From a virus (Duplodnaviria; Heunggongvirae; Uroviricota; Caudoviricetes), in the IMG/VR virus record IMGVR_UViG_3300029736_000004: 64,000 nucleotides of DNA; one strand, written 5' to 3'. The translations under genes and the position numbers were made by a program. The number at the start of each line of letters is the position of its first letter. Position 1 is the first letter of the stretch. The notes below the pieces were generated by a model. That model did no database searches. It had not been told where the DNA came from and saw nothing but the letters and a program-made list of their open reading frames with translations. Shown piece by piece: positions 4,325-52,063 of the stretch.

Positions 4325-5118
4325 TGCTTGATTCAATCGCTGAAGTTAATGCATTCAAAATTCTAAATGCATCAGGCACAACTACGCCTGCATCTATCAC
4401 GCTAAGTAAAACAGCGTCATCCAATGCCAGTTCTCTGGAAGAGAATATCCAGGCTCTTATCCTGAAGGATAAAGCATACCCGGCGTCGGTGGTTTCATGG
4501 GTCAATCAGCTTTCTGTCTTTTCAGAACAACTGAAAACTGTCAGTGCAGAAGCAACCAATTTAGCCGACTCGCTGTCTCCGTATACTTCGCCAACTGAAT
4601 TACTTCAGATGAAAATTGGCTGGGAATGTTACGTCAAAGGTAATGAGTTATCTCCTGCGCCAGAATTTGCTCTCGTAACAGTTATGGGAGATACCCTGCA
4701 TCCGCAATCGCTTATTGACGCGTTGGCTGCATTTGAACTGGTGCCAATCACTTCAGCCATGGCCGCTATAAATGCAAAAGTTCAGGCGTCAAGCGGGGAG
4801 GCTTCAGGCAACGGAAGTTCCACCGGAACAACACAGCAACCAGCACTAACAGAAGAAGAGATCAAAGCACTAAAAGACGCTGTGGAAGCAGCAACAGAAC
4901 AAATAAATGCAATAAACAACACGAGCAGTAGTCTCTCAACACTTGCACAGCAAGTTAAGGACTCTACCGGAAAAGCCAAACAGGGACTGGAAAATGCTGT
5001 AGCTATTACGTTAACCGGTTCTCTACTGGGCGATGAAGTAATGAGTCCGGCAATCAGTTTGATCATGCCACAAGGTGTAATCGATGCGCTCCAAAGCAAC
5101 ACTAAAAAGGAATCATAA
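4324..5118 (+). CDS. hypothetical protein (Ser/Thr/Ala-rich)
   Basis: 264-aa ORF; start overlaps PAAR stop (TAATG). Confidence 0.5.
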   Translation: MLDSIAEVNAFKILNASGTTTPASITLSKTASSNASSLEENIQALILKDKAYPASVVSWVNQLSVFSEQLKTVSAEATNLADSLSPYTSPTELLQMKIGWECYVKGNELSPAPEFALVTVMGDTLHPQSLIDALAAFELVPITSAMAAINAKVQASSGEASGNGSSTGTTQQPALTEEEIKALKDAVEAATEQINAINNTSSSLSTLAQQVKDSTGKAKQGLENAVAITLTGSLLGDEVMSPAISLIMPQGVIDALQSNTKKES

Positions 5119-5188
5119 CCACACCATTTAAGCCCATAAATGGTTACAAATTGGTACACATATCACACCAACAAAAAATCTGAAGAGG

Positions 5189-5647
5189 ATGGTTTTGAAA
5201 AAGATAATTTTGATAGTAGTTGCGCTTTTAGCCATTTATGGAATTTACCGTACTACGGCGGCAGTTATCGATCACATCAGGTATATCCGTTCCCTGGAAG
5301 ACTCAAAATCACAACTTGAAAGCGAGAACAACACGCTTTCTACCGCATTGCAGTTAAGTGAAAAATCGCGATCTGCCATGATGGCTGAAAACGAAAGAAT
5401 TAAAACACTGGAGAAGGAGTACCAGCGCAAAACAGCAGAACTGAATACCAGCCTGATCAAACAACGGGAGGAAAGCCAGAATGAAATCAATCGTCTTGAA
5501 ACTGCGTTACGTAATGCCGGGGTTAATGATGTGCGTGTGCCTGATGACGTTATCAGGATGCAGCGGGAACGGGCAAAAGAAATCAATCAGCGTGCCAATG
5601 CAAATTACCGTAGAAGCCACCAGCAAACCGCAGGGAAATCTGATTGA
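5189..5647 (+). CDS. i-spanin (Rz-like)
   Basis: N-terminal TM (KKIILIVVALLAIYGIY) followed by a long coiled-coil periplasmic domain. Confidence 0.5.
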   Translation: MVLKKIILIVVALLAIYGIYRTTAAVIDHIRYIRSLEDSKSQLESENNTLSTALQLSEKSRSAMMAENERIKTLEKEYQRKTAELNTSLIKQREESQNEINRLETALRNAGVNDVRVPDDVIRMQRERAKEINQRANANYRRSHQQTAGKSD

Positions 5648-22899: not shown

Positions 22900-23346
22900 A
22901 TGGCTGAAACTTTAAAATCCCAAAGCGATTCAAGTATTTACAAGGCGCAACTCCTTTCTTACTACTACTCTCGCCGTGCAGAGTCTGCAATCGGCAGGGG
23001 TGAGCGTTTTGTTATGACAAAGGCTTATTGGTGCAAGTCCGATCTTGTGACGGTAAATAGTGCTGGTGGCTGGACTATTTCTGATATTCCGCTCGACTTC
23101 AAGTTAAGTGATGCACAGCATTTTGCTGAATCCAATCTCATTCTTTCCAGCCTCGATGGTGTCATTACGATTAATGCCGCTTTTCCACAAGAAACGATGC
23201 CGGACGATACACCTTACGATTTCAATACGCTGGTTCTCGTAGATGCAGAGGATCAGGCTTTTGGGGTTGTTTGTACTCAACAGGACACCTTATTCAAAGG
23301 TAAGCGATACAGCTTGCTCATGACCATTGAACAGGTCGAGGGATAA
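22900..23346 (+). CDS. hypothetical tail-fibre-associated protein (P1 R position)
   Basis: 148-aa ORF immediately upstream of the tail fibre gene. Confidence 0.35.
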   Translation: MAETLKSQSDSSIYKAQLLSYYYSRRAESAIGRGERFVMTKAYWCKSDLVTVNSAGGWTISDIPLDFKLSDAQHFAESNLILSSLDGVITINAAFPQETMPDDTPYDFNTLVLVDAEDQAFGVVCTQQDTLFKGKRYSLLMTIEQVEG

Positions 23347-23348
23347 TT

Positions 23349-26300
23349 ATGTGCGCAGATAAAGTAAAGAATATTGTCACCTTATCTTCGGACATTTCCG
23401 CTCCACTAATTGCAGACATGCAATACTTTGAGCTGTATAGCACCGAAGCTCTAAACAGGAAGATGAAAAATATCGTTCTGCCCGGAGTGTACTGTGGGTT
23501 TGAACCGGTGCCAGGGGATGGTCTGTTTGTGCGTATTACATCCGAGAAAACAGAGGGAAGAGGGGCGGCTTCAATTGACGTGGGTAAATGTCAGATATCC
23601 GTGCAGCAAGTCAGTGATGTTCTTGTTCCTGTAGAAGCTGGTGTAACGACAATCATCGTTCTTGAAGCTAATTACGAACATGGAGTGAAAACCAGCCAGG
23701 TAGATAGCTCATCGGATATTAGCGCAGCGAGAATTATTGCTCTCGTTGATGAGGAAATAGCATCTAACCAGATTGAGCTATGCCGCGTGATCGTGCCTGA
23801 CAATGCTCAAGCCGTTACCGCAGATATGATTAGCACTGAATATCGTGCTAATCGTGCTGTTGGTGTTGAGTTTTCCAGTGCTTTGGATAGTGACGAAGAA
23901 TATAAAGCCGCAACACCTCTTGCTATCAGCACGTTAAACAAACTAAAAGCTCCGGTTGATAGCCCGGAGTTTATTGGTATACCTAAATCTCCAACTCCGG
24001 AACAAGGTACAAACAGTACACAAATCGCAAACACTGCCTTTGTTCAGGCCGCAATAACCGCCCTTATTGATGGTTCTCCTTCAGCGTTGGATACGCTGAA
24101 AAAAATTGCAGATGCAATTAACAATGATCCTCAGTTTAGCCAGACGATTAATGCTGCTTTAGCTCTTAAAGCACCGTTATTAAGCCCGGCATTTACAGGG
24201 GTGCCAACAGCGCCTACAGCGTCACAAGGTACGAACAACACTCAGATTGCAACAACCGCTTATGTTCGTGCCGCTATTTCTGCATTGGTCGGCTCATCAC
24301 CAGAAGCTCTTGATACTCTTAATGAGCTTGCTGCGGCGCTGGGCAATGACCCGAACTTTGCGGCTACAATGACAAATGCCCTGGCAGGTAAGCAGCCTCT
24401 CGACGCAACCTTAACCGCGCTCGCTGACCTGGCGACGGGGGCAAATAAATTACCGTACTTTACCGGAACAGACACTGTAGCCCAGACTGATTTAACGTCA
24501 GTCGGTCGCGATATTCTTGCTAAAACAAGCACACTGGCTGTTATCCAATACCTTGGTTTAAGAGAACTCGGAACCAGCGGAGAAAAGCTCCCCCTGTTGA
24601 GCACAGCTAATACCTGGAGTGCACGCCAGACTTTCAGCGCGGGGATCACTGGTACGCTGACCGGGAACGCCGATACTGCGACGAAATTAAAAACAGCCAG
24701 AAAGATTAACGGTGTGGCATTTGATGGGTCGGCAGATATTACTCTGACCCCTGAAGATCTTGGCTTAACGGATATTGCTTCTCAAGCTGGTAACGCAGTT
24801 CAGCGTTCTGGCGACACAATGGGGGGGCAGCTAAAAATTGGCACAATAAATGCCCTTCGAATATTTAACCAGGACTTTGGCCTTATCTTCAGGAGATCCG
24901 AGGAATATCTTCATCTTATCCCGACAAATGAAGGTGAGGGAGAAAATGGTGACATCGGCCCATTAAGACCTTTTGCTATAAATTTAAGAACCGGGTTGGT
25001 GTCCATCGGTAATGGGGTAACAGTTAGTGGTGGCATTACAGGTAATTTGACGGGAAACGCAGATACTGCCACAAAGCTCAAGATGGCCCGAACGATCGGC
25101 GGGGTGGCATTTGATGGCACCGCCAATATCGACCTGCCGGGTGTGAACATTGCCGGTAACCAGAACACAACAGGTAATGCTGCAACCGCTACAAAACTTC
25201 AGACGGCACGCACAATCAACGGTGTTAAGTTTGATGGTTCTGCGAACATTTCGATACCAACAATTACGTCCAGAGGGCGTGTTACTGCGCTCACCGGTAC
25301 AACGCAAGGTGCTGCTGCTGGATTGCAGATGTATGAGGCGTACAACAACGGCTATCCTTCTGCTTACGGGAATGTGCTTCATCTTAAGGGCGCAACGGCA
25401 GTTGGTGAAGGCGAGTTGTTCATAGGCTGGAGCGGTACAAGTGGCGCTCATGCCCCGGCTTTTATTCGCTCTCGCAGGGATTCAACAGATGCTGCATGGT
25501 CTGAGTGGGCGCAGGTCTACACATCGAAGGATTCCATCCCTGGTGTAAATACAACAGGCAACCAGAACACAACCGGAAACGCAGATACTGCCACAAAGCT
25601 CAAGATGGCCCGAACGATCGGCGGGGTGGCATTTGATGGCACCGCCAATATCAACCTGCCGGGCGTTAATAAAACAGGTAATCAGAGCACAACCGGTAAT
25701 GCTGCAACCGCAACAAAACTTCAGACGGCACGCACAATCGGCGGGGTGGCATTTGATGGCAGCGCCAATATCAACCTGCCGGGTGTGAACATTGCCGGTA
25801 ACCAGAACACAACAGGTAATGCTGCAACCGCTACAAAACTGCAAACAGCCCGCACAATCAACGGTGTTAAGTTTGATGGTTCTGCAGATATCACATTAAC
25901 GGCAAGTCATGTTGGTGCGTTACCAACAACAGGTGGTACTGTTACCGGTGAAATTATATCCAGCAGCCAAAATGCTATACGCCTAACTTATAATAATAAC
26001 TATGGATTCCTAATAACTAATACTGGATATAGTTTCCAGATATCAACCACTGGGCAAAATGTTAATGGTGATGTCGTTTACACTCCATTAAAGATAGATG
26101 GCGGTGATGGTCGCGTAGAATTAGGACGTGCTGATGGTCATGTAAGGGTTATGGGGAATTTATCTGCCGCTGGTCAGATTACCCCTGGTAACTATAGTAA
26201 TTTCAACACGAAATATCAGGCTAAAAACACAGCATATGCCAACATTCATGGATGGCATAAGGATACATCAACTAAGGTGATGATGCAGTGGGGGATTATA

Positions 26301-26498
26301 GCGGCTGTTACTCCAGGAAGCGTAGTTAAATTTCCGACTGCTTTTCCTGAGGCGTGTGCGGTAGTTGTGATTTCACCTAATAGCGGGAATGCTGTTAATG
26401 CAATTCTTTATACATACAACAACTCAGCCACTGGTTTTACAGTAAAAAGTAGCTCTACTGATAAAGTATATGCACAGTATGTTGCTTATGGGTATTAA
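23349..26498 (+). CDS. tail fibre protein with internal repeats
   Basis: 1049 aa; repeated TGNQNTTGNAATATKLQTARTI(N/G)GV(K/A)FDG(S/T)ANI and GNADTATKLKMARTIGGVAFDG units; followed by Tfa gene. Confidence 0.75.
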   Translation: MCADKVKNIVTLSSDISAPLIADMQYFELYSTEALNRKMKNIVLPGVYCGFEPVPGDGLFVRITSEKTEGRGAASIDVGKCQISVQQVSDVLVPVEAGVTTIIVLEANYEHGVKTSQVDSSSDISAARIIALVDEEIASNQIELCRVIVPDNAQAVTADMISTEYRANRAVGVEFSSALDSDEEYKAATPLAISTLNKLKAPVDSPEFIGIPKSPTPEQGTNSTQIANTAFVQAAITALIDGSPSALDTLKKIADAINNDPQFSQTINAALALKAPLLSPAFTGVPTAPTASQGTNNTQIATTAYVRAAISALVGSSPEALDTLNELAAALGNDPNFAATMTNALAGKQPLDATLTALADLATGANKLPYFTGTDTVAQTDLTSVGRDILAKTSTLAVIQYLGLRELGTSGEKLPLLSTANTWSARQTFSAGITGTLTGNADTATKLKTARKINGVAFDGSADITLTPEDLGLTDIASQAGNAVQRSGDTMGGQLKIGTINALRIFNQDFGLIFRRSEEYLHLIPTNEGEGENGDIGPLRPFAINLRTGLVSIGNGVTVSGGITGNLTGNADTATKLKMARTIGGVAFDGTANIDLPGVNIAGNQNTTGNAATATKLQTARTINGVKFDGSANISIPTITSRGRVTALTGTTQGAAAGLQMYEAYNNGYPSAYGNVLHLKGATAVGEGELFIGWSGTSGAHAPAFIRSRRDSTDAAWSEWAQVYTSKDSIPGVNTTGNQNTTGNADTATKLKMARTIGGVAFDGTANINLPGVNKTGNQSTTGNAATATKLQTARTIGGVAFDGSANINLPGVNIAGNQNTTGNAATATKLQTARTINGVKFDGSADITLTASHVGALPTTGGTVTGEIISSSQNAIRLTYNNNYGFLITNTGYSFQISTTGQNVNGDVVYTPLKIDGGDGRVELGRADGHVRVMGNLSAAGQITPGNYSNFNTKYQAKNTAYANIHGWHKDTSTKVMMQWGIIAAVTPGSVVKFPTAFPEACAVVVISPNSGNAVNAILYTYNNSATGFTVKSSSTDKVYAQYVAYGY

Positions 26499-26529: not shown

Positions 26530-26952
26530 ATGGCAAAGTATTACAGCAAAGATACTGGTGGTTTCTACGACGATAGACTAAAAGAAGATTACGATAAAAA
26601 CGGTTCATGGCCGTCCGATGCTGTACATATACCTGATGACTTATATGATGAATTGTTATCAGGGTATGGCAATGGGAAAATAATAATTGCAAATGGCGAT
26701 GGTTATCCAATGTTATCTGACCCACAACCTATGAGCTTAGAGGATAGAGTCAGCATTGCTGAAAACACCAAAAGTAGTCTTATGAATGATGTGAGCATAA
26801 AAATATCAACGCTTCAGGATGCTGTTGATATGGATATTGCCACTGATGAGGAAATAGAAATGTTGACAAAGTTAAAGAGGTATAGAGTTCTTCTTAATAG
26901 AGTTGACACTTCTGTTGATGCAGATATCTCATGGCCTGAGATGCCTGCATAA
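26530..26952 (+). CDS. tfa: tail fibre assembly chaperone (Tfa)
   Basis: C-terminus KSSLMNDVSIKISTLQDAVDMDIATDEEIEMLTKLKRYRVLLNRVDTS matches lambda Tfa C-terminal region (recalled). Confidence 0.8.
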   Translation: MAKYYSKDTGGFYDDRLKEDYDKNGSWPSDAVHIPDDLYDELLSGYGNGKIIIANGDGYPMLSDPQPMSLEDRVSIAENTKSSLMNDVSIKISTLQDAVDMDIATDEEIEMLTKLKRYRVLLNRVDTSVDADISWPEMPA

Positions 26953-27021: not shown

Positions 27022-27412
27022 AGTGAGTGCTTTTGTGACCTTTTTTAGTAATACAATCCTTTGGTACAAAAAAGCCGCCGTCCAGTCAATGACGGCGGGC
27101 AAAATGAACACTCAGTTAGTGGTATCTGAGAGGGGGGCATTATATTCACTGAATGACGCTTGTGAAGACTCACATGTCATCATTTTGTCCTCAAGAATCA
27201 GCTCACATCTTGCGCATTCAAGCGTATTTCTCTTTAAAGCCGTGTTTGGACCATTTTGTTGATACGCGAATTTGGCATCCTCCACGCTCTGAGTGACGAG
27301 GTTTACGGACCACCGGGCCATCATATGCATCCATTTTGTGTGAATGGCATTTAGTCGGGAAATAACAAACTGGATAAGTTGAAGCCGCGTTAAACGTCAT
27401 TTCTGGAGGGGT

Positions 27413-39627: not shown

Positions 39628-42600
39628 TTGAGGGGGCTTCCTTTGGACAAAATAATTGATTCAATTAGCCAGGCCACCAGCATTGGGGCGCTGATTGAAA
39701 TTGTTAGTCGGTTGCATAAACCGCGAGCTGTAGTGACCTTTGGCGTTAAGAAAGTCGATGGCGTCAGTATTCAGAAAACACGCCGGGCAGCAAACAACGC
39801 CGCAGTAAATCTTCTTAATTCCCTTCCGCCTGGCTTCGATGGGGCGAAATTAACTGACGAACAGCGTCAGATTCTTGCCGGGTATACCGGTGAAGGCGGC
39901 CTGACAGATGGTGAGGGCAGCCAATACGAATACTATACGCCACAGTTTATGGCAGAAGGTATATGGGATCTCTTCGGCGACTACGGTATTGATAGCGGTC
40001 ACGTACTGGAACCGTCAGCAGGCACAGGTATTTTCCAGGAGACAAAACGGCAGGGCATGATAATGACCAGCGCCGAACTGTCTCCGATCTCCGGTCGAAT
40101 AAACCAGCTTTTGCACCCGGAAGATGATGTGAATATCGGGGCGTTTGAGGCGCTGGCGGCGAAAGATGCAATGTATGACCACGCAGTTGGTAACGTACCG
40201 TTTGGCGAAGGGCGTTCCGGCGTCGCCGGGCTTGATCCGGCATATGCAAACGAGAAGAACGTTGGCAATTATTTTGTGCTGCGCACGATCGACAAGGTTA
40301 AGCCTGGTGGACTAATTGTATTGGTGGTGCCGAATGGCATGACCGATGGTACGAAATACAAAAAATTGCGCGATAAAGTCAGCCGTAAAGCGGAATTTTT
40401 GGGCGCGCATCGTATGCCTTCTGGTACGTTCAGCGAATCCGGTACAGATACCGTGGTGGACGTATGGGTATTGCGTAAACACCCGGAAACCTTCCTGGAG
40501 ATGATCCCCGACACGGATGATGCAACGCTCAAATCGGCAAACGTCCTTTGGGATACCTTCCTCAAAGGGAAATGGTTTACAACCGAAGGGAAGCGATTTG
40601 TTTACGGCGACATGGAACGCACCAGCTTCCGCAATACCCTGGTGGTGAAAAAGGACGGTCGTGTATCCAATGAGTCGATGAAAACCGCGTTATCACGCCG
40701 CTTTGAAAGCCGTATTAATTGGGATTTGCTCGGAGTAACTACCCAGGCATGGCAGGGCGCAAAAGTAGGGGATAAGCGTCTTGTAGGCGGTATCTGGCAT
40801 GAGTTTGATGGCCTGAAATGGGTTAAGGACACGACAACCAAATCCTCCGCGCTTGATGTAAGTCGATATGGTGTTTCGACGTTTGGCGATCTGCAGATCG
40901 CGTTCCAGTCAACAAACGGGATTCTGGCTTTGTCATGGGACCAGATATCGGCGATCGCGTCCGACTATCCATCGGTTGTCAGTGATGAAGTGGCAGCAAT
41001 GATTCGCTTTGCTGGCAAACAGCGAGAAAAAGACAGGGAGCGCGTTATGCGCGGTGCACTGATAGGTCAGTTGATCAACAAGGCACTTGATTTGCGTAAC
41101 CTGGGGGGGAACGTTGATGACAAACTGGCAGATGCATCCCGCCTGGCGGCAGCAGAAGTTGCGAAGTATGGACCACCGCACGCGATTAAGCTGAATGGGC
41201 TTGCAGAAGCTGGAGCTAAAAACTGGATGACGTTCACTGGCAATGTGAAACAGGATGGTTCCACTTCTGACCTTCTGGCAGGGCGACTTGATGTAACGGA
41301 TGGTGCTGCCGGTATTGACTTTACACGTCCGGAACAAGTGATAGCACATCTTTTCAGTGATGTAGCCCTTAATCCTATAACGCTGGGCGACTTTCGTGAG
41401 GCGTTTGCTGGTGAACTGCCAGAGGACGACGACGCGGCCCTTGAATACCTGGCGAAATTTGATGATATCGCTATTGATGGGTATGGCTGCCTGCTGCCGA
41501 TGGACCGCGCCACCAGCGGCGATATTGCAACCAAAACAACATTGCTGGTGGGCTGGCGTGATGCGTCAACAGGTGAACAGAAAGCGAACTTTGAGCGTCA
41601 GTTGGCGAAAATCGAAGAGAAACGCATTTTCACGCCACTAAATAAAGTCACCGTTAATCTGAACGCCCGCTGGCTGGATCGCCGCTTGATAAAAGAGTTC
41701 CTGGCAGAGCAGGGCTATGACGAGTTTAAGTACACTGAACCTGATCTGAAGGTCGTCGATGGCATTCTGGTATCTCCGGACGATTACGAAGGTAAGGACG
41801 GGGTATTTACCGGCTATCAGCTACGAACCGTAAACGGCAAAAACGGGAATGAGTTCAAGAAGGCCAACAATAAAGACGGCTTCCTGAACCAGTTAGAAAA
41901 CTACCTGAACGGTGTTAAACCGCGTGGGCAGAACGCTAACGAGTACCTGGATAAAATTGCTCAACTGGAAGTTAGCTTTAACGACTGGTTACGCACCCAC
42001 CCGCAGGCGGATCAGATAGCCCGTGACTATAACGACGCATTCAATGGCTTCATTCCGTTCACGCACTCTAACGCACCGCTTGGCCTGGAAGGGATTAGTG
42101 GAAAGCGCATTCCTCTGACTTATCAGAATGAAGAAGTTCGTCGCTTGTCAGAAGATGGGCGCGGCATCATGGGATTTGGTACCGGGCTGGGTAAAACCAC
42201 GACCGCGCTTGCGCTTGAGGCGTATAACTTCGAAACAGGTCGTACTAAACGCACGTGTATTGTTGTTCCGAAGGCGGTTTATCAGAACTGGTATCACGAG
42301 GCACAGAGCTTCTACAGTGCTGATGCCTTCGCCAATATGATGTTTATCGGTCTGGATGAAGTTCGTGATGAAGACGGCAATATTCTGACCGCGCCGGTGC
42401 TTGATGAAAATGGCGAACCCCGCCTCGACAGTAACGGGCAGCCTCTTACCAGAAATGTTGTGAAAGAGTCCGCCAGCGCCGTTATCGTTCAGCGCATGAA
42501 CATGATCCCGTCGTCAAATTGGCGAACGGTCATCATGACAAAAGAACAATTCGCGTCTATCCCGCTACGAGAAAAAACCATCGAGGAGAACTCACAGCAA

Positions 42601-45600
42601 GCTGTCTTTAATGCTGTGGAAATGGGGCGTCTTGACCTGGCGTCTGGTAAACACCGTGATGCGCAGAAGAAGAACAAGATTAAGGATCAGGCCGCGAATA
42701 CCGGTACAACGAAGAAGCAGAATATCCCGTACTTTGAGGATATGAACTTCGATAGCGTGATTGCCGACGAGGGGCATAACTACCGCAACTCCTTTAATGC
42801 CGGGCGTGAAGCGGGACAACTGGCATATTTGCCTAACCCGGCAGTATCCAAGATGGCCCGCGACATGGCTGTAAAAGCTGCGTACATGATGAAACGCAAC
42901 AACGGGCGTGGTGTAGTCATGCTGACGGCAACTCCGCTGGTGAACAGTCCGATTGATGCCTTCAACATGCTGTCTACTGTCATTCCGCAGGAAGAGTGGA
43001 TGCGCATGGGCATTATTACGCCGGATGATTTCGTTCGCGTGTTCGGCAAAACAGCCACAGTTCAGGTTCAGAAAATTTCCGGTGAGGTGGAAGAGAAGCA
43101 GGGGCTGGTGGGCTTCCAGAACCTTGATGGTCTGCGTGGTATTTTCCACCGTTGGACCACTCTGAAGACTGCCGCAGATGTCGGAGCGACGGTTAAAATT
43201 CCCGACATCATCGAGAACACCTTGCAGATCCCGATGACAGGGGAGCAGGAGGCTGCTTATGAAGAGCTTCGTAAGCGTGCTCAGGAGTTAAGTCGCAATG
43301 ATGAGCTGACAGTCGATGAAAACGGGCATATCACTAACGACAAACCGGATGATTTCATCTTCTCCATCATCCGCGACATGGATAAGGTTGCTATAGATCC
43401 GGATCTGTATGCCAGTGCGATTACATTCCAGTTCCCCGTTGAGCTTGCAGACAAGGTAAAAGCTATTGCGGATGCCCTGCCAAAAGTCGCAGGCGGTAAA
43501 GTGGCAGATGATGCAGACGAGGCCGAAGAAGACGGCGCTGGTGGACTGGTCAGTACGCGTACCAGCAAGGTAGTGAAGACCACCTTTAGTGAACATCCGG
43601 CGCATGTTGAAATACGCGCCAGCATTGAACTGGAAGCTGAAATACTGAAGGCCATTGCTGCCGCCGGGATTGATCTGCAGCAGGTATCACACCCCATCCC
43701 GCCGAAGTATGCCGCGCTGATCGAAAACCTTCGTGAAGGTTTGAAGAACGGTAAACAAATTGTCTTCATTGATGAAAAAGCCCAGCACCAGAAGCTGCGC
43801 CGTATTATCGCCAGTGCACTGCAAATGCCGGAGCAGGAGATAGGCATTATCAATGCGACGACCGTTAGCCAGGCTGGCGGCATCAAGCTGAAGAAGGTGA
43901 ATAAGCCGACTGAACCTACTCCGAATAAAAACGGTGAATACAAAGAAGGGGCATGGGAAACCTACTACAGCAAACTTGCCCAATATGAGGATTATCTCTC
44001 AGCTAAAAATGATGCTGGCCTTGAGGGTATGGAAGGCATTGCCGCCGACTATAACGAAGGGCGCACGCGCATCATTATCTGTAACAAGAAGGCTGAAGTA
44101 GGTATTAACCTGCATATCGGGACAACCGATATCCACCACCTGACACTACCCTGGACACCAGCCAGTATCGACCAACGAAATGGGCGCGGTGCGCGCGTAG
44201 GTTCACCGCAAGAGAAGGTCAATGTTCACTACTATTGTGGCAAAGGCACATTCGACGACTTCCGTCTGGATACGCTGAAACGTAAGAAAGACTGGATCAA
44301 GATGGTGATGACCTCCGACATGTCAGAGATCGCCAATGGTGATGCGGATGATGCTGATGAACGCGCCATTATGCTGGCGGCAAACCCGGAAGAACGCCGC
44401 GCAATCATGGCTCGCCAGGCGCAAGAGCGCGAAGAACGTCTGAAACTGAAAGCACAGCGCGAGGCCAACAATGCTCTCGATATCTACCTGAAAGCGGCAA
44501 ACGCCGCTGGAAAAGATATCGGCATGATGGAGACAGAACTGAAAAGCGCGATGGAACAGATAGAGTATTACCAGCGAAATCTTGACGACCTGATAAAAGC
44601 GGGTACGAACAGGAATGGGCAAAAATTCGCGCTTGAGCAGTTGAGTAGCTACAGAAAACGTGCGCGGGTGCTGCGGTTTGCGATCACCAGGGCAAAAGAC
44701 GCGGATACCATAATGAAACGCTCTCGTGGTGATGTGGAGCGAGCTATTAAGTCTGGTGTGCTGGATATCAGTATCGATGTTATTCAGAACCCACAGGAAT
44801 ATATGCGCACTGACAAGAATATCCTGTTGCATAAAGGTAGTTATTACCGTGCAGTCATTGATGATCGCGAAACAACAGCGATTGTCCGGGTGGAAAAAAT
44901 TGACGGTGAAAAAGCACAATACCTCTGCCGTATCGCCTGGCTGGATAGAGCAAGTCGTTACGCTCGATCACCGGGGTCAATCGTTACATTGCCGTTTGAC
45001 TCTGTGATTGAAGCGGTAACTTTTGAAGAGGGGGTAGCTGAATCGCGCGCAACGGCTGCGCGTGGTGTTCAGTGCCACCAGCTATCAACAATACTTACTC
45101 GCGATCAGTTCTATGATGCTATTCGCAATGGGGTAATGAATGTTATTGCTGGTAAACCTGGTAATGCATGGGGCGGTGGGTCAGCTATTAAATACTGGGC
45201 ATATCGCACAGATGATGGTCAGATCGCGCTGTCATCGGCCTATGATGGCGTGATAGGCCAAAAAATCGGGCGAGCATCGGATATAGCACCTGAACGATGG
45301 ATATATCCAGATGGCAACGATGAGGCGCTGAAGCGTGAAGTGGCAAAAATACAAGCCAGTGATAACCCGCTGAATATCGTGGACGGCGAGGGATTCCTCC
45401 AGGCATTGTATGGGTATGATTACATCCAGGGAATGCAGGCATGGGGCGCACAGGCAACGATGGATGATGTTGTCCAGGAGTTCGAAAACTGGATGGCTGG
45501 GCGTGGTCTGTCAGGTCGTTCGCTTAATAAAGTCACTTCTGAAGATATTCTTAGCTTGTTCCGCAAACCGTCCGGAGAAGGTCTGGAATCATTCTGGAGG

Positions 45601-46479
45601 ACCGTGCTGGCATACCGTTTATTCAAGGGCAGAATGAAAGCCTTTAGCAATATCGATGATATTGAACGGATGTTTAATCAGGTCAAGATCGCGAAAATTA
45701 AGACGAAGATCGAAAAAACACGTTCTGCGCTGGTGGCCTGGCGCGATGCATTGTTTGAGCAATATAAATCACTCAGTGATGCAGATGGATGGGCGGCATT
45801 GGAACAGTTGGCGAATAATGGGGTAGATGGAGCGAAACTCGCCATAGTCCAGGCTGATAACCCCCTGGAATCACCGGCAGCACAGTGGATTAAGGTGGGG
45901 GCTGTCATCAATGCATTTGATGAAAAACACATTAGTAAGGACGATTTTGCTGATGCTGTTTCTGTTAATCGCCTGGTAGAAATGGCTACCCGCCGCGCCC
46001 GTGAGTTGAAAGACGGTGACTATGTGAATGAGTTGCCGGATGCGCTCAAATCAGCAACGTGGCAAGACTATGTATCGCTGAAAAACGGCGGGGCCACCGA
46101 ATCAGAGATCGCGGAAAGGCTTGAACAGGCTGAAAGCAAAAGAGAAGAGCAGGCGGCAGTGGCTGAAGCCAGAGCTGATGAAGCGGCGAATGATGACTAT
46201 ATCATTGTGGTTAATGATAAGCCGATTCGCGCTAAGGCGCGTGTTCGCGGGCGCTGGTGGAGTGTCAGCGAGGACGTCGGTGCGGTTTATCTCATTGCCG
46301 ACCAACCTGGTTCCTCGACAATACGGAACGCCAAAGACGCGATTAAGAAGATTGGCGGGCGTTTCTGGAATTTTGAAGCAAACCCGGTTGCTGATGTGAA
46401 CTTTGACCGTCCGGCATGGATGGTATCTACGCGTTACTCGGTAGATGAACTGCGTAAAATAATCGCCGATGCGGCCTAA
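39628..46479 (+). CDS. DarB-like N6-adenine methyltransferase / SF2 helicase fusion
   Basis: 2283 aa; MTase motifs EPSAGTGIF and GNVPFGEG; helicase Walker A GFGTGLGKTT, DEGH box, motif VI QRNGRGARVG; start may be TTG 39628 or 39643. Confidence 0.7.
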   Translation: MRGLPLDKIIDSISQATSIGALIEIVSRLHKPRAVVTFGVKKVDGVSIQKTRRAANNAAVNLLNSLPPGFDGAKLTDEQRQILAGYTGEGGLTDGEGSQYEYYTPQFMAEGIWDLFGDYGIDSGHVLEPSAGTGIFQETKRQGMIMTSAELSPISGRINQLLHPEDDVNIGAFEALAAKDAMYDHAVGNVPFGEGRSGVAGLDPAYANEKNVGNYFVLRTIDKVKPGGLIVLVVPNGMTDGTKYKKLRDKVSRKAEFLGAHRMPSGTFSESGTDTVVDVWVLRKHPETFLEMIPDTDDATLKSANVLWDTFLKGKWFTTEGKRFVYGDMERTSFRNTLVVKKDGRVSNESMKTALSRRFESRINWDLLGVTTQAWQGAKVGDKRLVGGIWHEFDGLKWVKDTTTKSSALDVSRYGVSTFGDLQIAFQSTNGILALSWDQISAIASDYPSVVSDEVAAMIRFAGKQREKDRERVMRGALIGQLINKALDLRNLGGNVDDKLADASRLAAAEVAKYGPPHAIKLNGLAEAGAKNWMTFTGNVKQDGSTSDLLAGRLDVTDGAAGIDFTRPEQVIAHLFSDVALNPITLGDFREAFAGELPEDDDAALEYLAKFDDIAIDGYGCLLPMDRATSGDIATKTTLLVGWRDASTGEQKANFERQLAKIEEKRIFTPLNKVTVNLNARWLDRRLIKEFLAEQGYDEFKYTEPDLKVVDGILVSPDDYEGKDGVFTGYQLRTVNGKNGNEFKKANNKDGFLNQLENYLNGVKPRGQNANEYLDKIAQLEVSFNDWLRTHPQADQIARDYNDAFNGFIPFTHSNAPLGLEGISGKRIPLTYQNEEVRRLSEDGRGIMGFGTGLGKTTTALALEAYNFETGRTKRTCIVVPKAVYQNWYHEAQSFYSADAFANMMFIGLDEVRDEDGNILTAPVLDENGEPRLDSNGQPLTRNVVKESASAVIVQRMNMIPSSNWRTVIMTKEQFASIPLREKTIEENSQQAVFNAVEMGRLDLASGKHRDAQKKNKIKDQAANTGTTKKQNIPYFEDMNFDSVIADEGHNYRNSFNAGREAGQLAYLPNPAVSKMARDMAVKAAYMMKRNNGRGVVMLTATPLVNSPIDAFNMLSTVIPQEEWMRMGIITPDDFVRVFGKTATVQVQKISGEVEEKQGLVGFQNLDGLRGIFHRWTTLKTAADVGATVKIPDIIENTLQIPMTGEQEAAYEELRKRAQELSRNDELTVDENGHITNDKPDDFIFSIIRDMDKVAIDPDLYASAITFQFPVELADKVKAIADALPKVAGGKVADDADEAEEDGAGGLVSTRTSKVVKTTFSEHPAHVEIRASIELEAEILKAIAAAGIDLQQVSHPIPPKYAALIENLREGLKNGKQIVFIDEKAQHQKLRRIIASALQMPEQEIGIINATTVSQAGGIKLKKVNKPTEPTPNKNGEYKEGAWETYYSKLAQYEDYLSAKNDAGLEGMEGIAADYNEGRTRIIICNKKAEVGINLHIGTTDIHHLTLPWTPASIDQRNGRGARVGSPQEKVNVHYYCGKGTFDDFRLDTLKRKKDWIKMVMTSDMSEIANGDADDADERAIMLAANPEERRAIMARQAQEREERLKLKAQREANNALDIYLKAANAAGKDIGMMETELKSAMEQIEYYQRNLDDLIKAGTNRNGQKFALEQLSSYRKRARVLRFAITRAKDADTIMKRSRGDVERAIKSGVLDISIDVIQNPQEYMRTDKNILLHKGSYYRAVIDDRETTAIVRVEKIDGEKAQYLCRIAWLDRASRYARSPGSIVTLPFDSVIEAVTFEEGVAESRATAARGVQCHQLSTILTRDQFYDAIRNGVMNVIAGKPGNAWGGGSAIKYWAYRTDDGQIALSSAYDGVIGQKIGRASDIAPERWIYPDGNDEALKREVAKIQASDNPLNIVDGEGFLQALYGYDYIQGMQAWGAQATMDDVVQEFENWMAGRGLSGRSLNKVTSEDILSLFRKPSGEGLESFWRTVLAYRLFKGRMKAFSNIDDIERMFNQVKIAKIKTKIEKTRSALVAWRDALFEQYKSLSDADGWAALEQLANNGVDGAKLAIVQADNPLESPAAQWIKVGAVINAFDEKHISKDDFADAVSVNRLVEMATRRARELKDGDYVNELPDALKSATWQDYVSLKNGGATESEIAERLEQAESKREEQAAVAEARADEAANDDYIIVVNDKPIRAKARVRGRWWSVSEDVGAVYLIADQPGSSTIRNAKDAIKKIGGRFWNFEANPVADVNFDRPAWMVSTRYSVDELRKIIADAA

Positions 46480-51034: not shown

Positions 51035-51111
51035 GATGGTGTAGCTCAGTAGGATAGAGCAGCAGCCTTCTAAGCTGTCGGTCGGTGGTTCGAATCCACC
51101 CACCATCGCCA
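51035..51111 (+). tRNA. tRNA-Arg (anticodon TCT)
   Basis: Cloverleaf: acceptor GATGGTG/CACCATC, D-arm TAGCTCAGTAGGATAGAGC, anticodon loop CTTCTAA, T-arm GGTGGTTCGAATCCACC, CCA end. Confidence 0.85.
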
Positions 51112-51116
51112 ATTTA

Positions 51117-51203
51117 GGGGAGTTAGTCCGTAGGGGTAGCGGGGTAGACTGTAAATCTACTGTCATTGCGACTCGGATGGTTCGACTCCATCACTCCCCA
51201 CCA
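51117..51203 (+). tRNA. tRNA-Tyr (anticodon GTA)
   Basis: Acceptor GGGGAGT/ACTCCCC, anticodon stem-loop GTAGA-CTGTAAA-TCTAC, long variable arm, T-loop TTCGACT, CCA. Confidence 0.8.
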
Positions 51204-51207
51204 AATT

Positions 51208-51283
51208 GCCGGTTTAGCTCAGTTGGTAGAGCAGTCGCTTTGTAAGCGAATGGTCAGCGGTTCGATCCCGTTAACCGGCACCA
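51208..51283 (+). tRNA. tRNA-Thr (anticodon TGT)
   Basis: Acceptor GCCGGTT/AACCGGC, D-arm GCTCAGTTGGTAGAGC, anticodon loop TTTGTAA, T-loop TTCGATC, CCA. Confidence 0.8.
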
Positions 51284-51296
51284 ACACAACAGGTAA

Positions 51297-51361
51297 GGGT
51301 ATTTTGCGACATCGGAGATCGCCGAGCTTGGCAGAGGGTTCGAATCCCTACGAAGTACCCT
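51297..51361 (+). other. tRNA-like element lacking a canonical anticodon arm (possible degenerate tRNA)
   Basis: Acceptor-like GGGTATT/AGTACCC, D-arm-like GCGA...TCGC, T-arm GAGGGTTCGAATCCCTA, but only 11 nt between D and T arms; extended outer stem CACAACAGGTAAGGG/CCCTTGCCGTTGTG. Confidence 0.25.
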
Positions 51362-51471
51362 TGCCGTTGTGATGAATGCACAGGCTGATGTGCCGCAACT
51401 ACAGTAGTGCGCGCTTTGCGGGGCTTGCTACAACCCTGTGTCGGAGTTCAGCACCGACCATCACAATCACT

Positions 51472-51558
51472 GGAGAGTAGGGAGCATGGTGCTCAAGCGG
51501 TCTTGAAAACCGTCCCATTGCGCAAGCGATGATGGTTCGATTCCATTACTCTCCGCCA
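51472..51558 (+). tRNA. tRNA-Ser (anticodon TGA)
   Basis: Acceptor GGAGAGT/ACTCTCC, anticodon stem-loop GCGGT-CTTGAAA-ACCGT, long variable arm, T-arm GATGGTTCGATTCCATT, CCA. Confidence 0.8.
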
Positions 51559-51849
51559 GCGCAACGTTAAGAGTATTTGGCTAATTAAGCGAATGCCGGA
51601 AGCAGAACCGGATCACCAAATGCGTACAGGCGTCATCGCCGCCCAGTCAGCCAAATGCTCTTACCATTGCGGTGAATGCGGCTAAGCGCACGCGGAACAG
51701 TTAAAACAGTAAAGGTGGTCTTTTTACTGGCGTAACGAGCATCCATAAGTGATCCGGCGTTAATTGTTAACTGGTTAACGTCACCGGGAGGCACCCGGCA
51801 CCGCAACCTAACAGCAATGGCGTTTTGTCTTAAAAGGTGGCTGCAAGTG

Positions 51850-51978
51850 ATGGATTTTTGGGCGTTTGCCGATAAAAACCCGGAGTGGACATTATTGTTT
51901 CTGCTGGTGGTTGCATACGGGGTAGAGCAAGCGGCAAAAGCCTTACGCGGTTCTGGCAAAAAGCGTAAGCGTAATTAA
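51850..51978 (+). CDS. small hydrophobic ORF (42 aa) between tRNA genes
   Basis: MDFWAFADKNPEWTLLFLLVVAYGVEQAAKALRGSGKKRKRN; not in the ORF track (under 60 aa); AAAGGTGG upstream. Confidence 0.25.
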   Translation: MDFWAFADKNPEWTLLFLLVVAYGVEQAAKALRGSGKKRKRN

Positions 51979-51987
51979 CAGTAATCT

Positions 51988-52063
51988 GGCCCTTTAGCTC
52001 AGTGGTTAGAGCGGGCGACTCATAATCGCACGGTCACCGGTTCAAGTCCGGTAGGGGCCACCA
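51988..52063 (+). tRNA. tRNA-Ile2-like (anticodon CAT; Met not excluded)
   Basis: GGCCCTTTAGCTCAGTGGTTAGAGCGGGCGACTCATAATCGC...GGTTCAAGTCCGGTAGGGGCCACCA closely resembles E. coli ileX-type tRNA (recalled). Confidence 0.8.

What the first reader, a model, noticed from the sequence alone, without database searches (positions are those of the whole stretch)
25040..25885. Long near-identical direct repeats inside the tail fibre gene
Two blocks of about 75 bp and 105 bp recur about 510-640 bp apart (25057-25130 vs 25570-25643; 25138-25245 vs 25779-25885), encoding repeated GNADTATKLKMARTIGGVAFDG and TGNQNTTGNAATATKLQTARTINGVKFDG units. Recombination between them could change fibre length. Unlike P1, no invertase gene or inverted duplicate fibre segment was found after tfa.
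Basis: seen in the sequence. Interest (0 to 1): 0.45.

Follow-up and report, generated by a model that had tools for sequence, protein, structure and literature searches.

The report
Recombining shaft repeats in tail fibre
The tail-fibre gene of this P1/D6-like phage-plasmid contains six in-frame 40-residue shaft repeats around a small knob domain, and related plasmids carry different numbers of these units, so the repeats do act as recombination points that change fibre length, which is a known kind of tail-fibre plasticity.

Summary
The repeats are real. The true pairs are 25053-25130 = 25575-25652 (78/78, offset 522) and 25138-25245 vs 25780-25887 (102/108, offset 642). They are part of six 120-nt (40-aa) units, called R here, at 24630, 25020, 25140, 25542, 25662 and 25782. 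These flank a 94-aa knob (K, 25260-25541) in a 1049-aa P1-S/D6-gp35-type fibre gene (23349-26498).

The window is a D6-like phage-plasmid (89% nt identity to phage D6).

Comparison with relatives shows gene-conversion tracts: u3 copies u1 and u5 copies u2, unlike their orthologues. It also shows a ladder of natural alleles: 23 R/K/X arrangements, 835-1406 aa, among 96 fibres that share the same N-terminus and tip. Near-identical backgrounds carry exactly the predicted 120-, 522- and 642-nt differences.

The claim of "no invertase" needs a qualifier. There is no intact cin, cixL or inverted Sv'/U'. However, a perfect orphan P1 cixR (24544-24563) and an 84-bp relic of the cin 5' end and enhancer (27185-27268) remain.

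This is ordinary homologous recombination in a mosaic fibre gene, and the allele is a new member of a known kind.

The parts
22900..23346 (+). P1 gene R-like fibre/baseplate-attachment gene (148 aa) just upstream of the fibre gene
   Evidence: Same position as P1 R and D6 orf36. The identical-length product in related contigs carries PF26881 Phage_P1_tail_fiber_R.
23349..26498 (+). Long tail fibre gene, P1 S / D6 gp35 type, 1049 aa
   Evidence: ORF found, translated. 74-84% nt identity to the S genes of P1, P7 and D6 over the N-terminal part. PHROG tail-fibre families hit at E = 0. An identical protein, P0040, exists in a JGI contig.
24544..24563 (+). Orphan cixR: a 20/20 match to the P1 and D6 Cin crossover site, inside the fibre ORF
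   Evidence: Single exact match in 64 kb, 0 expected. Identical to the annotated cixR of P1 and D6. No second site was found within 3 mismatches.
24630..24749 (+). Repeat unit u0 (diverged R unit, TFSAGITGTLTGNADTATKLKTARKINGVAFDGSADITLT)
   Evidence: (family D2). 52-67% nt identity to the other units.
25020..25139 (+). Repeat unit u1. Its 3' 78 nt (25053-25130) are identical to 25575-25652 in u3.
25140..25259 (+). Repeat unit u2. 25138-25245 matches 25780-25887 in u5 at 102/108.
25260..25541 (+). Knob module K (94 aa, TITSRGRVTAL...WAQVYTSKDSIP), between u2 and u3
   Evidence: Present once in P1 Sv and in both D6 Sv segments. Absent from the 835-995-aa alleles and duplicated in P0001. Homologous proteins are named 'pyocin knob domain-containing' by NCBI. 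No Pfam or NCBIfam hit.
25542..25661 (+). Repeat unit u3. The first 41 nt match the orthologues; about nt 42-111 are converted to the u1 sequence.
   Evidence: about 22 differences from all five orthologues and 0 from the window's own u1 across the tract.
25662..25781 (+). Repeat unit u4, a hybrid: 5' half u2-like, 3' half u1/u3-like
25782..25901 (+). Repeat unit u5. The first ~93 nt are of the pre-knob (u2) type and unlike the orthologous last unit of relatives.
   Evidence: about 25 differences from the orthologues and 4 from the window's u2. At those 4 sites u5 matches the relatives' pre-knob unit.
25902..26498 (+). C-terminal receptor-binding tip (about 199 aa) ending in a Gp53-like_C domain
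   Evidence: PF21882 matches aa 977-1049, E = 1.2e-9. Weak similarity to the Mu S tip 5yvq and the R1 pyocin fibre 6cxb.
26530..26952 (+). Tail fibre assembly chaperone (tfa, 140 aa)
   Evidence: PF02413 Caudo_TAP, E = 1.6e-34. It is the only copy in the window.
27185..27268 (-). Relic of the 5' end of the cin invertase gene, overlapping the homologue of the Cin recombinational enhancer; frameshifted
   Evidence: blastn: 82% over 84 nt to P1 cin and enhancer (annotation), and 80% to D6 cin. tblastn: Cin aa 11-34, 71% identity, E = 8e-6. The homologous stretch is annotated as a partial recombinase pseudogene in NZ_CP159120.

Best explanation
The repeats encode 40-residue structural units (R) of the trimeric shaft of a P1-S/D6-type long tail fibre. 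Five units lie around one 94-residue knob (u1-u2-K-u3-u4-u5), and a sixth, diverged unit lies upstream.

The units are in frame and stay alike at the DNA level. They therefore serve as substrates for ordinary homologous recombination: unequal crossing-over, gene conversion, and exchange with other fibre alleles. This adds or removes whole R units, or repeat-bounded blocks such as R+K, without touching the baseplate-proximal 568 aa or the receptor-binding tip.

The result is a population-level ladder of fibre lengths and module orders. It is not a programmed switch. The ancestral Cin inversion switch has been lost in this lineage, leaving only cixR and a cin fragment.

Shown: the repeat anatomy, the conversion tracts, the allele ladder and the junction positions.
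Inferred: the recombination pathway (RecA or a phage recombinase), the trimeric beta-helical structure of R, and any effect on adsorption or host range.
For: 1. Anatomy. Six in-frame 120-nt units plus a knob.

2. Concerted evolution. In u3, about 70 nt differ at about 22 sites from five orthologues but are identical to the window's u1. u5 carries the u2-type sequence rather than the orthologous one. u2 carries a 4-site patch shared with u4.

3. Allele ladder. Among 96 full-length cluster representatives with the same N-terminus and tip there are 23 architectures. Examples are RR 835 aa, RRR 875, RRRR 915, RRRRRR 995, RRKRR 1009, RRKRRR 1049, RRRKRRR 1089, RRRRKRRR 1129, RRRRRRKRRR 1209 and RRRRKRRRRKRRR 1383, plus forms with 232-255-aa inserts. 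RRRRRKRRR (1169 aa) occurs in three plasmids.

4. Same-background variants. Seven proteins have N-terminal 568 aa and tip 205 aa identical or nearly identical to the window's but different R/K content. Their contigs are 99.4-99.9% identical to the window over about 9 kb and differ by 120, 522 and 642 nt.

5. Junctions lie in repeat identity, and two different 522-nt junctions exist. L011/L014 switch at 25131-25141; L015 switches in a 27-nt run at 25191-25217. The 642-nt junction lies in a 68-nt run. The 10- and 27-nt identities are too short for k-mer assembly collapse of a window-identical template.

6. Complete-level plasmids show the same thing. pMUB-MIN14-1 (875 aa) and ECdb0009_p7 (1169 aa) are 99% identical in the flanks and differ by an 882-nt repeat-bounded block.

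7. Structural nature of R. A profile of R units matches the C-terminal stalk of phage L Dec (6e3c, E = 6e-4) and a tail fibre (8vbx gp47, E = 1.5e-3). The region hits many PHROG tail-fibre families.
Against: No data come from a single phage population, so neither the rate nor the existence of in-culture heterogeneity is known.

All the shorter variants in the window's exact background come from metagenome, draft WGS or Logan assemblies. There, collapse across 68-78-nt identical repeats is possible, particularly for the 642-nt class.

The direction of events (deletion or insertion) cannot be inferred.

The functional consequence of fibre length is not tested.

No usable structure was obtained for R or K: the AF2 monomer had pLDDT 41.
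Confidence: 0.8

Rival explanations
1. The repeats are only structural. Their similarity reflects purifying selection on a shaft motif, and they play no part in generating length variants. On this view the variants among relatives are independent acquisitions.
For: The R motif is strongly conserved at the protein level across many phages. 14 of 40 positions are invariant among 11 units.
Against: Identity extends to synonymous sites: 78/78 nt between u1 and u3, while the orthologous u3 of five relatives differs at about 22 sites. Alleles with 99% identical flanks differ by blocks bounded exactly by the repeats.
Confidence: 0.06
2. Assembly artefact. The near-identical repeats, or the shorter same-background variants, arise from mis-assembly of short reads across repeats, so they carry no biological signal of recombination.
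For: The same-background 835-, 875- and 1009-aa variants come from metagenomic, draft or Logan assemblies. The 642-nt junction lies in a 68-nt exact repeat, a size at which de Bruijn assemblers can drop a loop.
Against: The diagnostic 'KMARTIGGVAFDGT' conversion is shared by eight cluster representatives, counting the window's own P0040; six of the seven others were traced to independent assemblies. Two 522-nt variants have junctions in only 10-nt and 27-nt identities, too short for k-mer collapse. Complete-level RefSeq plasmids show the same kind of block differences. The RRKRRR architecture occurs in 9 cluster representatives.
Confidence: 0.08
3. Exchange between different co-resident phages or prophages, using R units as homologous linkers, is the main driver. 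Intragenic unequal crossing-over within one genome contributes little.
For: Many alleles carry extra 232-255-aa modules inserted between R units. Knob sequences differ (245-277 of 282 nt identical) between otherwise close alleles, which suggests imported segments. R/K modules occur in fibres of unrelated phages.
Against: Conversion of u3 by u1 and of u5 by u2 within the same gene, and the simple deletion-type differences in 99.4-99.9% identical backgrounds, are most simply intramolecular or between sister copies. The two routes are not exclusive.
Confidence: 0.3
4. A programmed site-specific system of the Cin/Min shufflon type still rearranges this fibre gene, using the repeats or the retained cixR.
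For: A perfect cixR is retained, and a cin/enhancer relic lies 230 bp after tfa. One relative, NZ_CP159120, has an intact invertase with inverted Sv' and tfa'.
Against: The window has no intact invertase, no second cix site within 3 mismatches, and no inverted fibre or tfa copy. The repeats are direct and lack a cix core. The 20/20 cixR match sits in coding DNA that is about 86% identical to P1 anyway.
Confidence: 0.03

Closest known systems
Phage P1 gene S and phage D6 gene 35 long tail fibres, with the Cin-invertible C segment
   Same: Same gene order (sit, pmgA, bplA, 16, R, S, tfa ... lydA, lydB, darA). The N-terminal part is homologous at 74-84% nt identity. The cixR site is identical. 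P1 Sv itself contains R-K-R, and both D6 Sv segments contain K and R modules.
   Different: Here the part downstream of cixR is fixed. There is no cixL, no Sv'/U' and no intact cin. The R array is expanded (2+K+3 against 1+K+1 in P1). The tip is a Gp53-like_C domain rather than the P1 or Mu type.
Repeated elements a0/a1/b1/b2 annotated in the constant part of P1 gene S (locus PP1RP/M81956; Sandmeier, Iida and Arber 1992, as cited)
   Same: These are direct, in-frame repeats inside the same fibre gene family, long recognised in the P1 record.
   Different: Those elements are 132-222 nt long, lie upstream of cixR and encode a different motif (SPxFTGxPTAPTAxQGTNxTQIA...). The repeats here are 120 nt, lie downstream of cixR and encode GNAxTATKLxTARxIxGVxFDG.
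Mosaic tail-fibre evolution by recombination at conserved motifs (Haggard-Ljungquist et al. 1992; Sandmeier 1994; Tetart et al. 1998; references listed; content from my own knowledge)
   Same: Short conserved fibre motifs act as homologous linkers for exchange of segments. The outcome is a set of chimeric fibres with a conserved proximal part.
   Different: Those papers concern exchange between unrelated phages and swaps of adhesin. This case is a within-family ladder of unit number, with a constant tip and visible intragenic conversion.
Tailocin fibre length haplotypes in wild Pseudomonas (bioRxiv 10.1101/2023.04.17.536465)
   Same: Discrete fibre length classes coexist in natural populations. 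In that system the length class correlates with killing spectrum.
   Different: It is a different organism and a different fibre family. The length classes there were not attributed to a 40-aa repeat ladder in the passages read.
C-terminal stalk of the phage L decoration protein Dec (PDB 6e3c) and tail fibre gp47 (PDB 8vbx)
   Same: They share the NAxTAxKLxTARTI...FDGSANI motif with the R unit (E = 6e-4 and 1.5e-3).
   Different: Each has a single copy with a 7-residue insertion. The match is by sequence only, and no fold comparison was possible.

Membership tests
P1 S / D6 gp35 long tail fibre | Homologous N-terminal (baseplate-proximal) part and a conserved neighbourhood: R upstream, tfa downstream, and the sit-pmgA-bplA-16 block | tested here: met
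   74-84% nt identity to P1, P7 and D6 S. Gene order matches the P1 and D6 annotation. The window is 89% identical to D6 over 23 kb.
Cin/Gin/Min-type invertible tail-fibre switch | Intact serine invertase gene next to the fibre segment | tested here: not met
   tblastn with P1 Cin finds only aa 11-34. tblastn with the invertase of NZ_CP159120 finds nothing. Only an 84-nt frameshifted relic remains.
Cin/Gin/Min-type invertible tail-fibre switch | Two crossover sites in inverted orientation | tested here: not met
   The window holds one exact cixR and no other match within 3 mismatches on either strand. About 26 kb of the element lies outside the window.
Cin/Gin/Min-type invertible tail-fibre switch | Alternative fibre C-terminus and chaperone on the opposite strand | tested here: not met
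   Self blastn and tblastn of fibre and tfa find no second copy on either strand.
Intragenic repeat array subject to homologous (unequal) recombination | At least two in-frame direct copies with long stretches of DNA identity | tested here: met
   78/78 and 102/108 nt. The unit is 120 nt and the offsets are 120, 522 and 642, all multiples of 3.
Intragenic repeat array subject to homologous (unequal) recombination | Natural alleles that differ by whole units, with junctions inside the repeats | tested here: met
   23 architectures among 96 fibres. Same-background differences of 120, 522 and 642 nt. Complete-level plasmid pair.
Intragenic repeat array subject to homologous (unequal) recombination | Concerted evolution (gene conversion) among units | tested here: met
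   u3 is converted by u1 and u5 by the u2 type, as shown against five orthologues.
Intragenic repeat array subject to homologous (unequal) recombination | Measurable heterogeneity within one population, and dependence on RecA | not testable with these tools
   This needs long-read or PCR data from a lysogen or lysate.
Pyocin-knob-type fibre domain (for module K) | Fold or profile match to the R-pyocin fibre knob | tested here: inconclusive
   The only support is the NCBI product name on homologues. No Pfam or NCBIfam hit. PDB sequence search gives only a weak match of the tip to 6cxb, not of K. The AF2 model was unusable.

The most novel reading that the evidence does not exclude
In D6-like phage-plasmids that have lost the Cin inversion switch, the R-unit array acts as a contingency locus. 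On this reading, frequent and reversible gain or loss of 40-aa units and R+K blocks tunes fibre reach to the thickness of the host's O-antigen or capsule layer. Inversion-based host-range switching would then be functionally replaced by length-based switching.
Probability: 0.1. Interest if true: 0.55.

Novelty: new member of a known kind. Interest (0 to 1): 0.3.

Why it matters
The result gives a concrete, well-delimited example of how a temperate phage-plasmid family varies fibre length and module order while keeping the baseplate attachment and the receptor-binding tip constant. The exact recombination offsets and natural products are mapped.

This is useful in two practical ways:
- For engineering P1/D6-type fibres, R-unit boundaries are natural splice points.
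- For annotation, short-read assemblies of these genes should be treated with suspicion.

The result does not reveal a new mechanism. The orphan cixR and the cin relic document loss of the inversion switch in a widespread E. coli plasmid lineage.

Tried and rejected
- AlphaFold2 on the single chain of aa 558-851 (u1 to u5) gave mean pLDDT 41 and pTM 0.31. The model is unusable, so no fold search was run. A trimer or alignment-based model would be needed.
- NCBIfam gave no hit for the fibre, the knob, the R-like gene or the 85-aa ORF. Pfam has no model for the R unit or the knob even at E = 10.
- A generic cix/gix core pattern (AAACCNNGGTTT) gave no enrichment, 3 hits against 2.3 expected. Only the exact cixR search was informative.
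- The look-up of encoding contigs for the window's own protein (P0040) found nothing on record, so the source sample could not be named.
- The primary papers were not held: Gilcrease and Casjens 2018, Sandmeier et al. 1992, and Lobocka et al. 2004. Their content is cited from memory or from record annotation only.
- A diversity-generating retroelement or other programmed mutagenesis was considered. Nothing in the fibre region suggests it: the repeats are direct, in frame and homogenised rather than diversified. No dedicated search for a reverse transcriptase was made.
- The minus-strand ORFs over the repeats (24984-25451, 25482-25844) were regarded as antisense artefacts of the fibre ORF and were not pursued.
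Full report
**What the window is.** The finding lies in a 3,150-nt ORF (23349-26498, + strand, 1049 aa). The ORF has the P1-type neighbourhood:
- sit-like transglycosylase
- pmgA
- bplA
- gene 16
- an R-like gene (22900-23346)
- the fibre gene
- a Caudo_TAP chaperone (26530-26952)
- lydA, lydB and darA

The fibre gene is 74-84% identical to the S genes of P1, P7 and D6 over its proximal part. The 23 kb downstream is 89% identical to phage D6 with 93% coverage. The window is therefore a D6-like (P1 group 2) phage-plasmid. Hundreds of E. coli plasmids carry related fibre genes. A protein 100% identical to the window's fibre exists once, in a JGI contig of 89,962 bp (P0040). Its contig could not be retrieved.

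**Check of the observation.** The repeats are real.
- The repeat finder reports a 194-nt family with copies at 25050, 25572 and 25692, and a 98-nt family that also includes 24642.
- TRF reports a period-120 array at 25548-25859.
- Self-blastn E-values are 1e-67 to 3e-69.

Block 1 as written is out of register (23/74). The true pair is 25053-25130 = 25575-25652, which is 78/78 identical at offset 522. Block 2 is 25138-25245 vs 25780-25887, 102/108 at offset 642.

**Anatomy.** The blocks belong to six in-frame 120-nt (40-aa) units, called R here. Their consensus is GVNxxGNQNTTGNAATATKLQTARTIxGVxFDGSANIxLP. The layout is as follows:

| Module | Coordinates |
|---|---|
| u0 | 24630-24749 |
| u1 | 25020-25139 |
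| u2 | 25140-25259 |
| K (knob, 94 aa) | 25260-25541 |
| u3 | 25542-25661 |
| u4 | 25662-25781 |
| u5 | 25782-25901 |

A 199-aa tip follows u5 and ends in a Gp53-like_C domain. P1's own Sv has the same module order in minimal form, R-K-R.

Neither R nor K has a Pfam or NCBIfam model. The region does hit more than 20 PHROG tail-fibre families. A profile of R units matches the C-terminal stalk of phage L Dec (6e3c) and a tail fibre (8vbx gp47). R is therefore a widely shared shaft motif. Homologues of K-containing fibres are named 'pyocin knob domain-containing' by NCBI. I could not confirm that fold, because a single-chain AF2 model was unusable (pLDDT 41).

**Evidence that the repeats recombine.**

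1. *Conversion tracts*. I aligned the window's post-knob units with the orthologous units of five related plasmids.
   - The first 41 nt of u3 match the orthologues. The next ~70 nt differ from all of them at about 22 sites and are identical to the window's own u1.
   - The first ~93 nt of u5 differ from the orthologous last unit at about 25 sites and carry the pre-knob (u2-type) sequence.
   - u2 carries a 4-site patch shared with u4.
   - These are gene-conversion footprints. They explain why non-adjacent units are 'near-identical' in this allele only.

2. *Allele ladder*. I searched the fibre against the large protein collection and parsed the best 120 hits.
   - Among 96 full-length proteins with the same N-terminus and the same tip there are 23 module arrangements, from 835 to 1406 aa.
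   - Several series rise in 40-aa steps: 835/875/915, 1009/1049/1089/1129/1209, 1303/1343 and 1305/1345.
   - An allele with two knobs is 1383 aa.
   - Some forms carry extra 232-255-aa modules spliced between R units.
   - Three plasmids carry a 1169-aa RRRRRKRRR form.

3. *Same-background variants.* Seven other proteins have N-terminal 568 aa and tip 205 aa identical or nearly identical to the window's. Their architectures are RRKRR (1009 aa), RRR (875) and RR (835).
- Three of their contigs (L011-L013, with 3-kb flanks) were compared with the window and are 99.4-99.9% identical over about 9 kb; they differ by 120, 522 and 642 nt.
   - Base-by-base junction analysis shows two different 522-nt junctions. 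One lies in a 10-nt window at 25131-25141. The other lies in a 27-nt identical run at 25191-25217 between u2 and u4.
   - The 642-nt junction lies in a 68-nt identical run.

4. *Complete-level assemblies.* pMUB-MIN14-1 (875 aa) and ECdb0009_p7 (1169 aa) are 99% identical in the flanks. They differ by an 882-nt block bounded by 180 nt of shared repeat.

**Caveats.** The same-background short variants all come from metagenome, draft or Logan assemblies. Loss of a loop between 68-78-nt exact repeats is a known failure of short-read assembly. Three points argue that the phenomenon is real:
- The 10- and 27-nt junctions are too short for k-mer collapse of a window-identical template.
- The same conversion markers recur in independent samples.
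- Complete plasmids show the same kind of block differences.

Individual short alleles still need read-level validation. Nothing here measures heterogeneity within one population, the direction of events, or any phenotype.

**The inversion system.**
- tblastn with P1 Cin finds only residues 11-34. tblastn with a relative's invertase finds nothing. Fibre and tfa have no second copy on either strand.

Two remnants were missed:
- A 20/20 match to the P1 and D6 cixR site lies inside the fibre ORF at 24544-24563. It is the only such site in the window.
- Window 27185-27268 is 82% identical to the 5' end of P1 cin, including the annotated recombinational enhancer, and carries a frameshift. It is 80% identical to D6 cin.

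D6 itself has the full arrangement cixR-S-U-U'-S'-cixL-cin. One close relative, NZ_CP159120, has an intact invertase with inverted Sv' and tfa' inserted exactly at the window's 27185/27186 breakpoint, next to the same relic. The window's lineage is thus a fixed-fibre derivative of an invertible ancestor. The repeats of the finding lie in what was the variable (Sv) part.

The cixR site is exact in all 15 related loci examined, with or without an invertase. It sits in coding DNA that is about 86% identical to P1, so its conservation is only mildly notable.

**Mechanism.** The best-supported reading is as follows.
- R units are structural shaft modules.
- Their DNA similarity, maintained by conversion, makes them substrates for general homologous recombination within the gene, between sister copies, or with other fibre alleles.
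- Products keep the reading frame because every offset is a multiple of 3, and they keep both functional ends of the fibre.
- It is not a programmed switch.

The pathway is inferred, whether RecA/RecBCD (whose minimal efficient homology of about 25 bp I recall from the literature) or a phage function.

**Comparison with what is known, and verdict.**
- Direct repeats in P1 gene S (elements a0, a1, b1, b2) are already annotated in the P1 record.
- Mosaic fibre evolution by recombination at conserved motifs is classical (references listed).
- D6-like plasmids are known to diverge most in the fibre inversion region (PMC6799933).
- Discrete fibre length classes that correlate with target range have been reported for Pseudomonas tailocins.

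This finding is a clear, well-resolved new instance of that known behaviour, not a new kind of system. Interest is modest, at 0.3.

Noticed in passing
window 24544-24563: A perfect 20/20 copy of the P1 and D6 cixR crossover site lies inside the fibre ORF, with no partner site and no invertase in the window. The same exact site is present in all 15 related loci examined, including lineages without cin. The flanks are about 86% identical to P1.
   Followed up: partly
window 27185-27268 (- strand): An 84-nt frameshifted relic of the cin 5' end overlaps the homologue of the Cin recombinational enhancer. In the relative NZ_CP159120 (L009 4610-4750) the same relic sits beside an intact invertase (4963-5544) and an inverted Sv'/tfa' cassette, inserted exactly at the window's 27185/27186 breakpoint. 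This suggests either loss of the cassette here or its re-acquisition there.
   Followed up: partly
window 27075-27098 and 27139-27166 (- strand): In the tfa-lydA spacer, downstream of the cin relic on the minus strand, there is a strong terminator-like hairpin (8 pairs, 7 G-C, T-run) and an 11/12 sigma-70-like promoter match. Their function is unknown.
   Followed up: no
relatives P0033-P0043, P0080-P0083, P0096, P0103: Two kinds of extra 232-255-aa modules are spliced between R units in related fibres. One begins SLSPANIGCPASPTGWL, the other ELTPRSIGTINSTTMSFSGG. Each is followed by a segment resembling the pre-tip region, like a second, internal 'tip'. They were not characterised.
   Followed up: no
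P0001 (1383 aa): One natural allele carries a tandem duplication of a whole [RRRR + knob] block, giving two knobs. This shows that expansions occur as well as deletions.
   Followed up: partly
window 23940-24400: There are two diverged copies of the ~74-aa SPxFTGxPTAPTAxQGTNxTQIAxTA...DTLxELAxALxNDPNF element, equivalent to the P1 'b1/b2' repeated elements. They lie upstream of cixR and are seen in the translation only. This part matches a tail collar fibre in PDB 9d93.
   Followed up: no
window 51035-52063: A cluster of five tRNA genes (Arg-tct, Tyr-gta, Thr-tgt, Ser-tga, Met-cat) lies on the + strand.
   Followed up: no
window 39628-46479: A very large ORF (2283 aa) occupies the position where D6 and P1 have the DarB-type methyltransferase/helicase anti-restriction protein. 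It was not examined.
   Followed up: no
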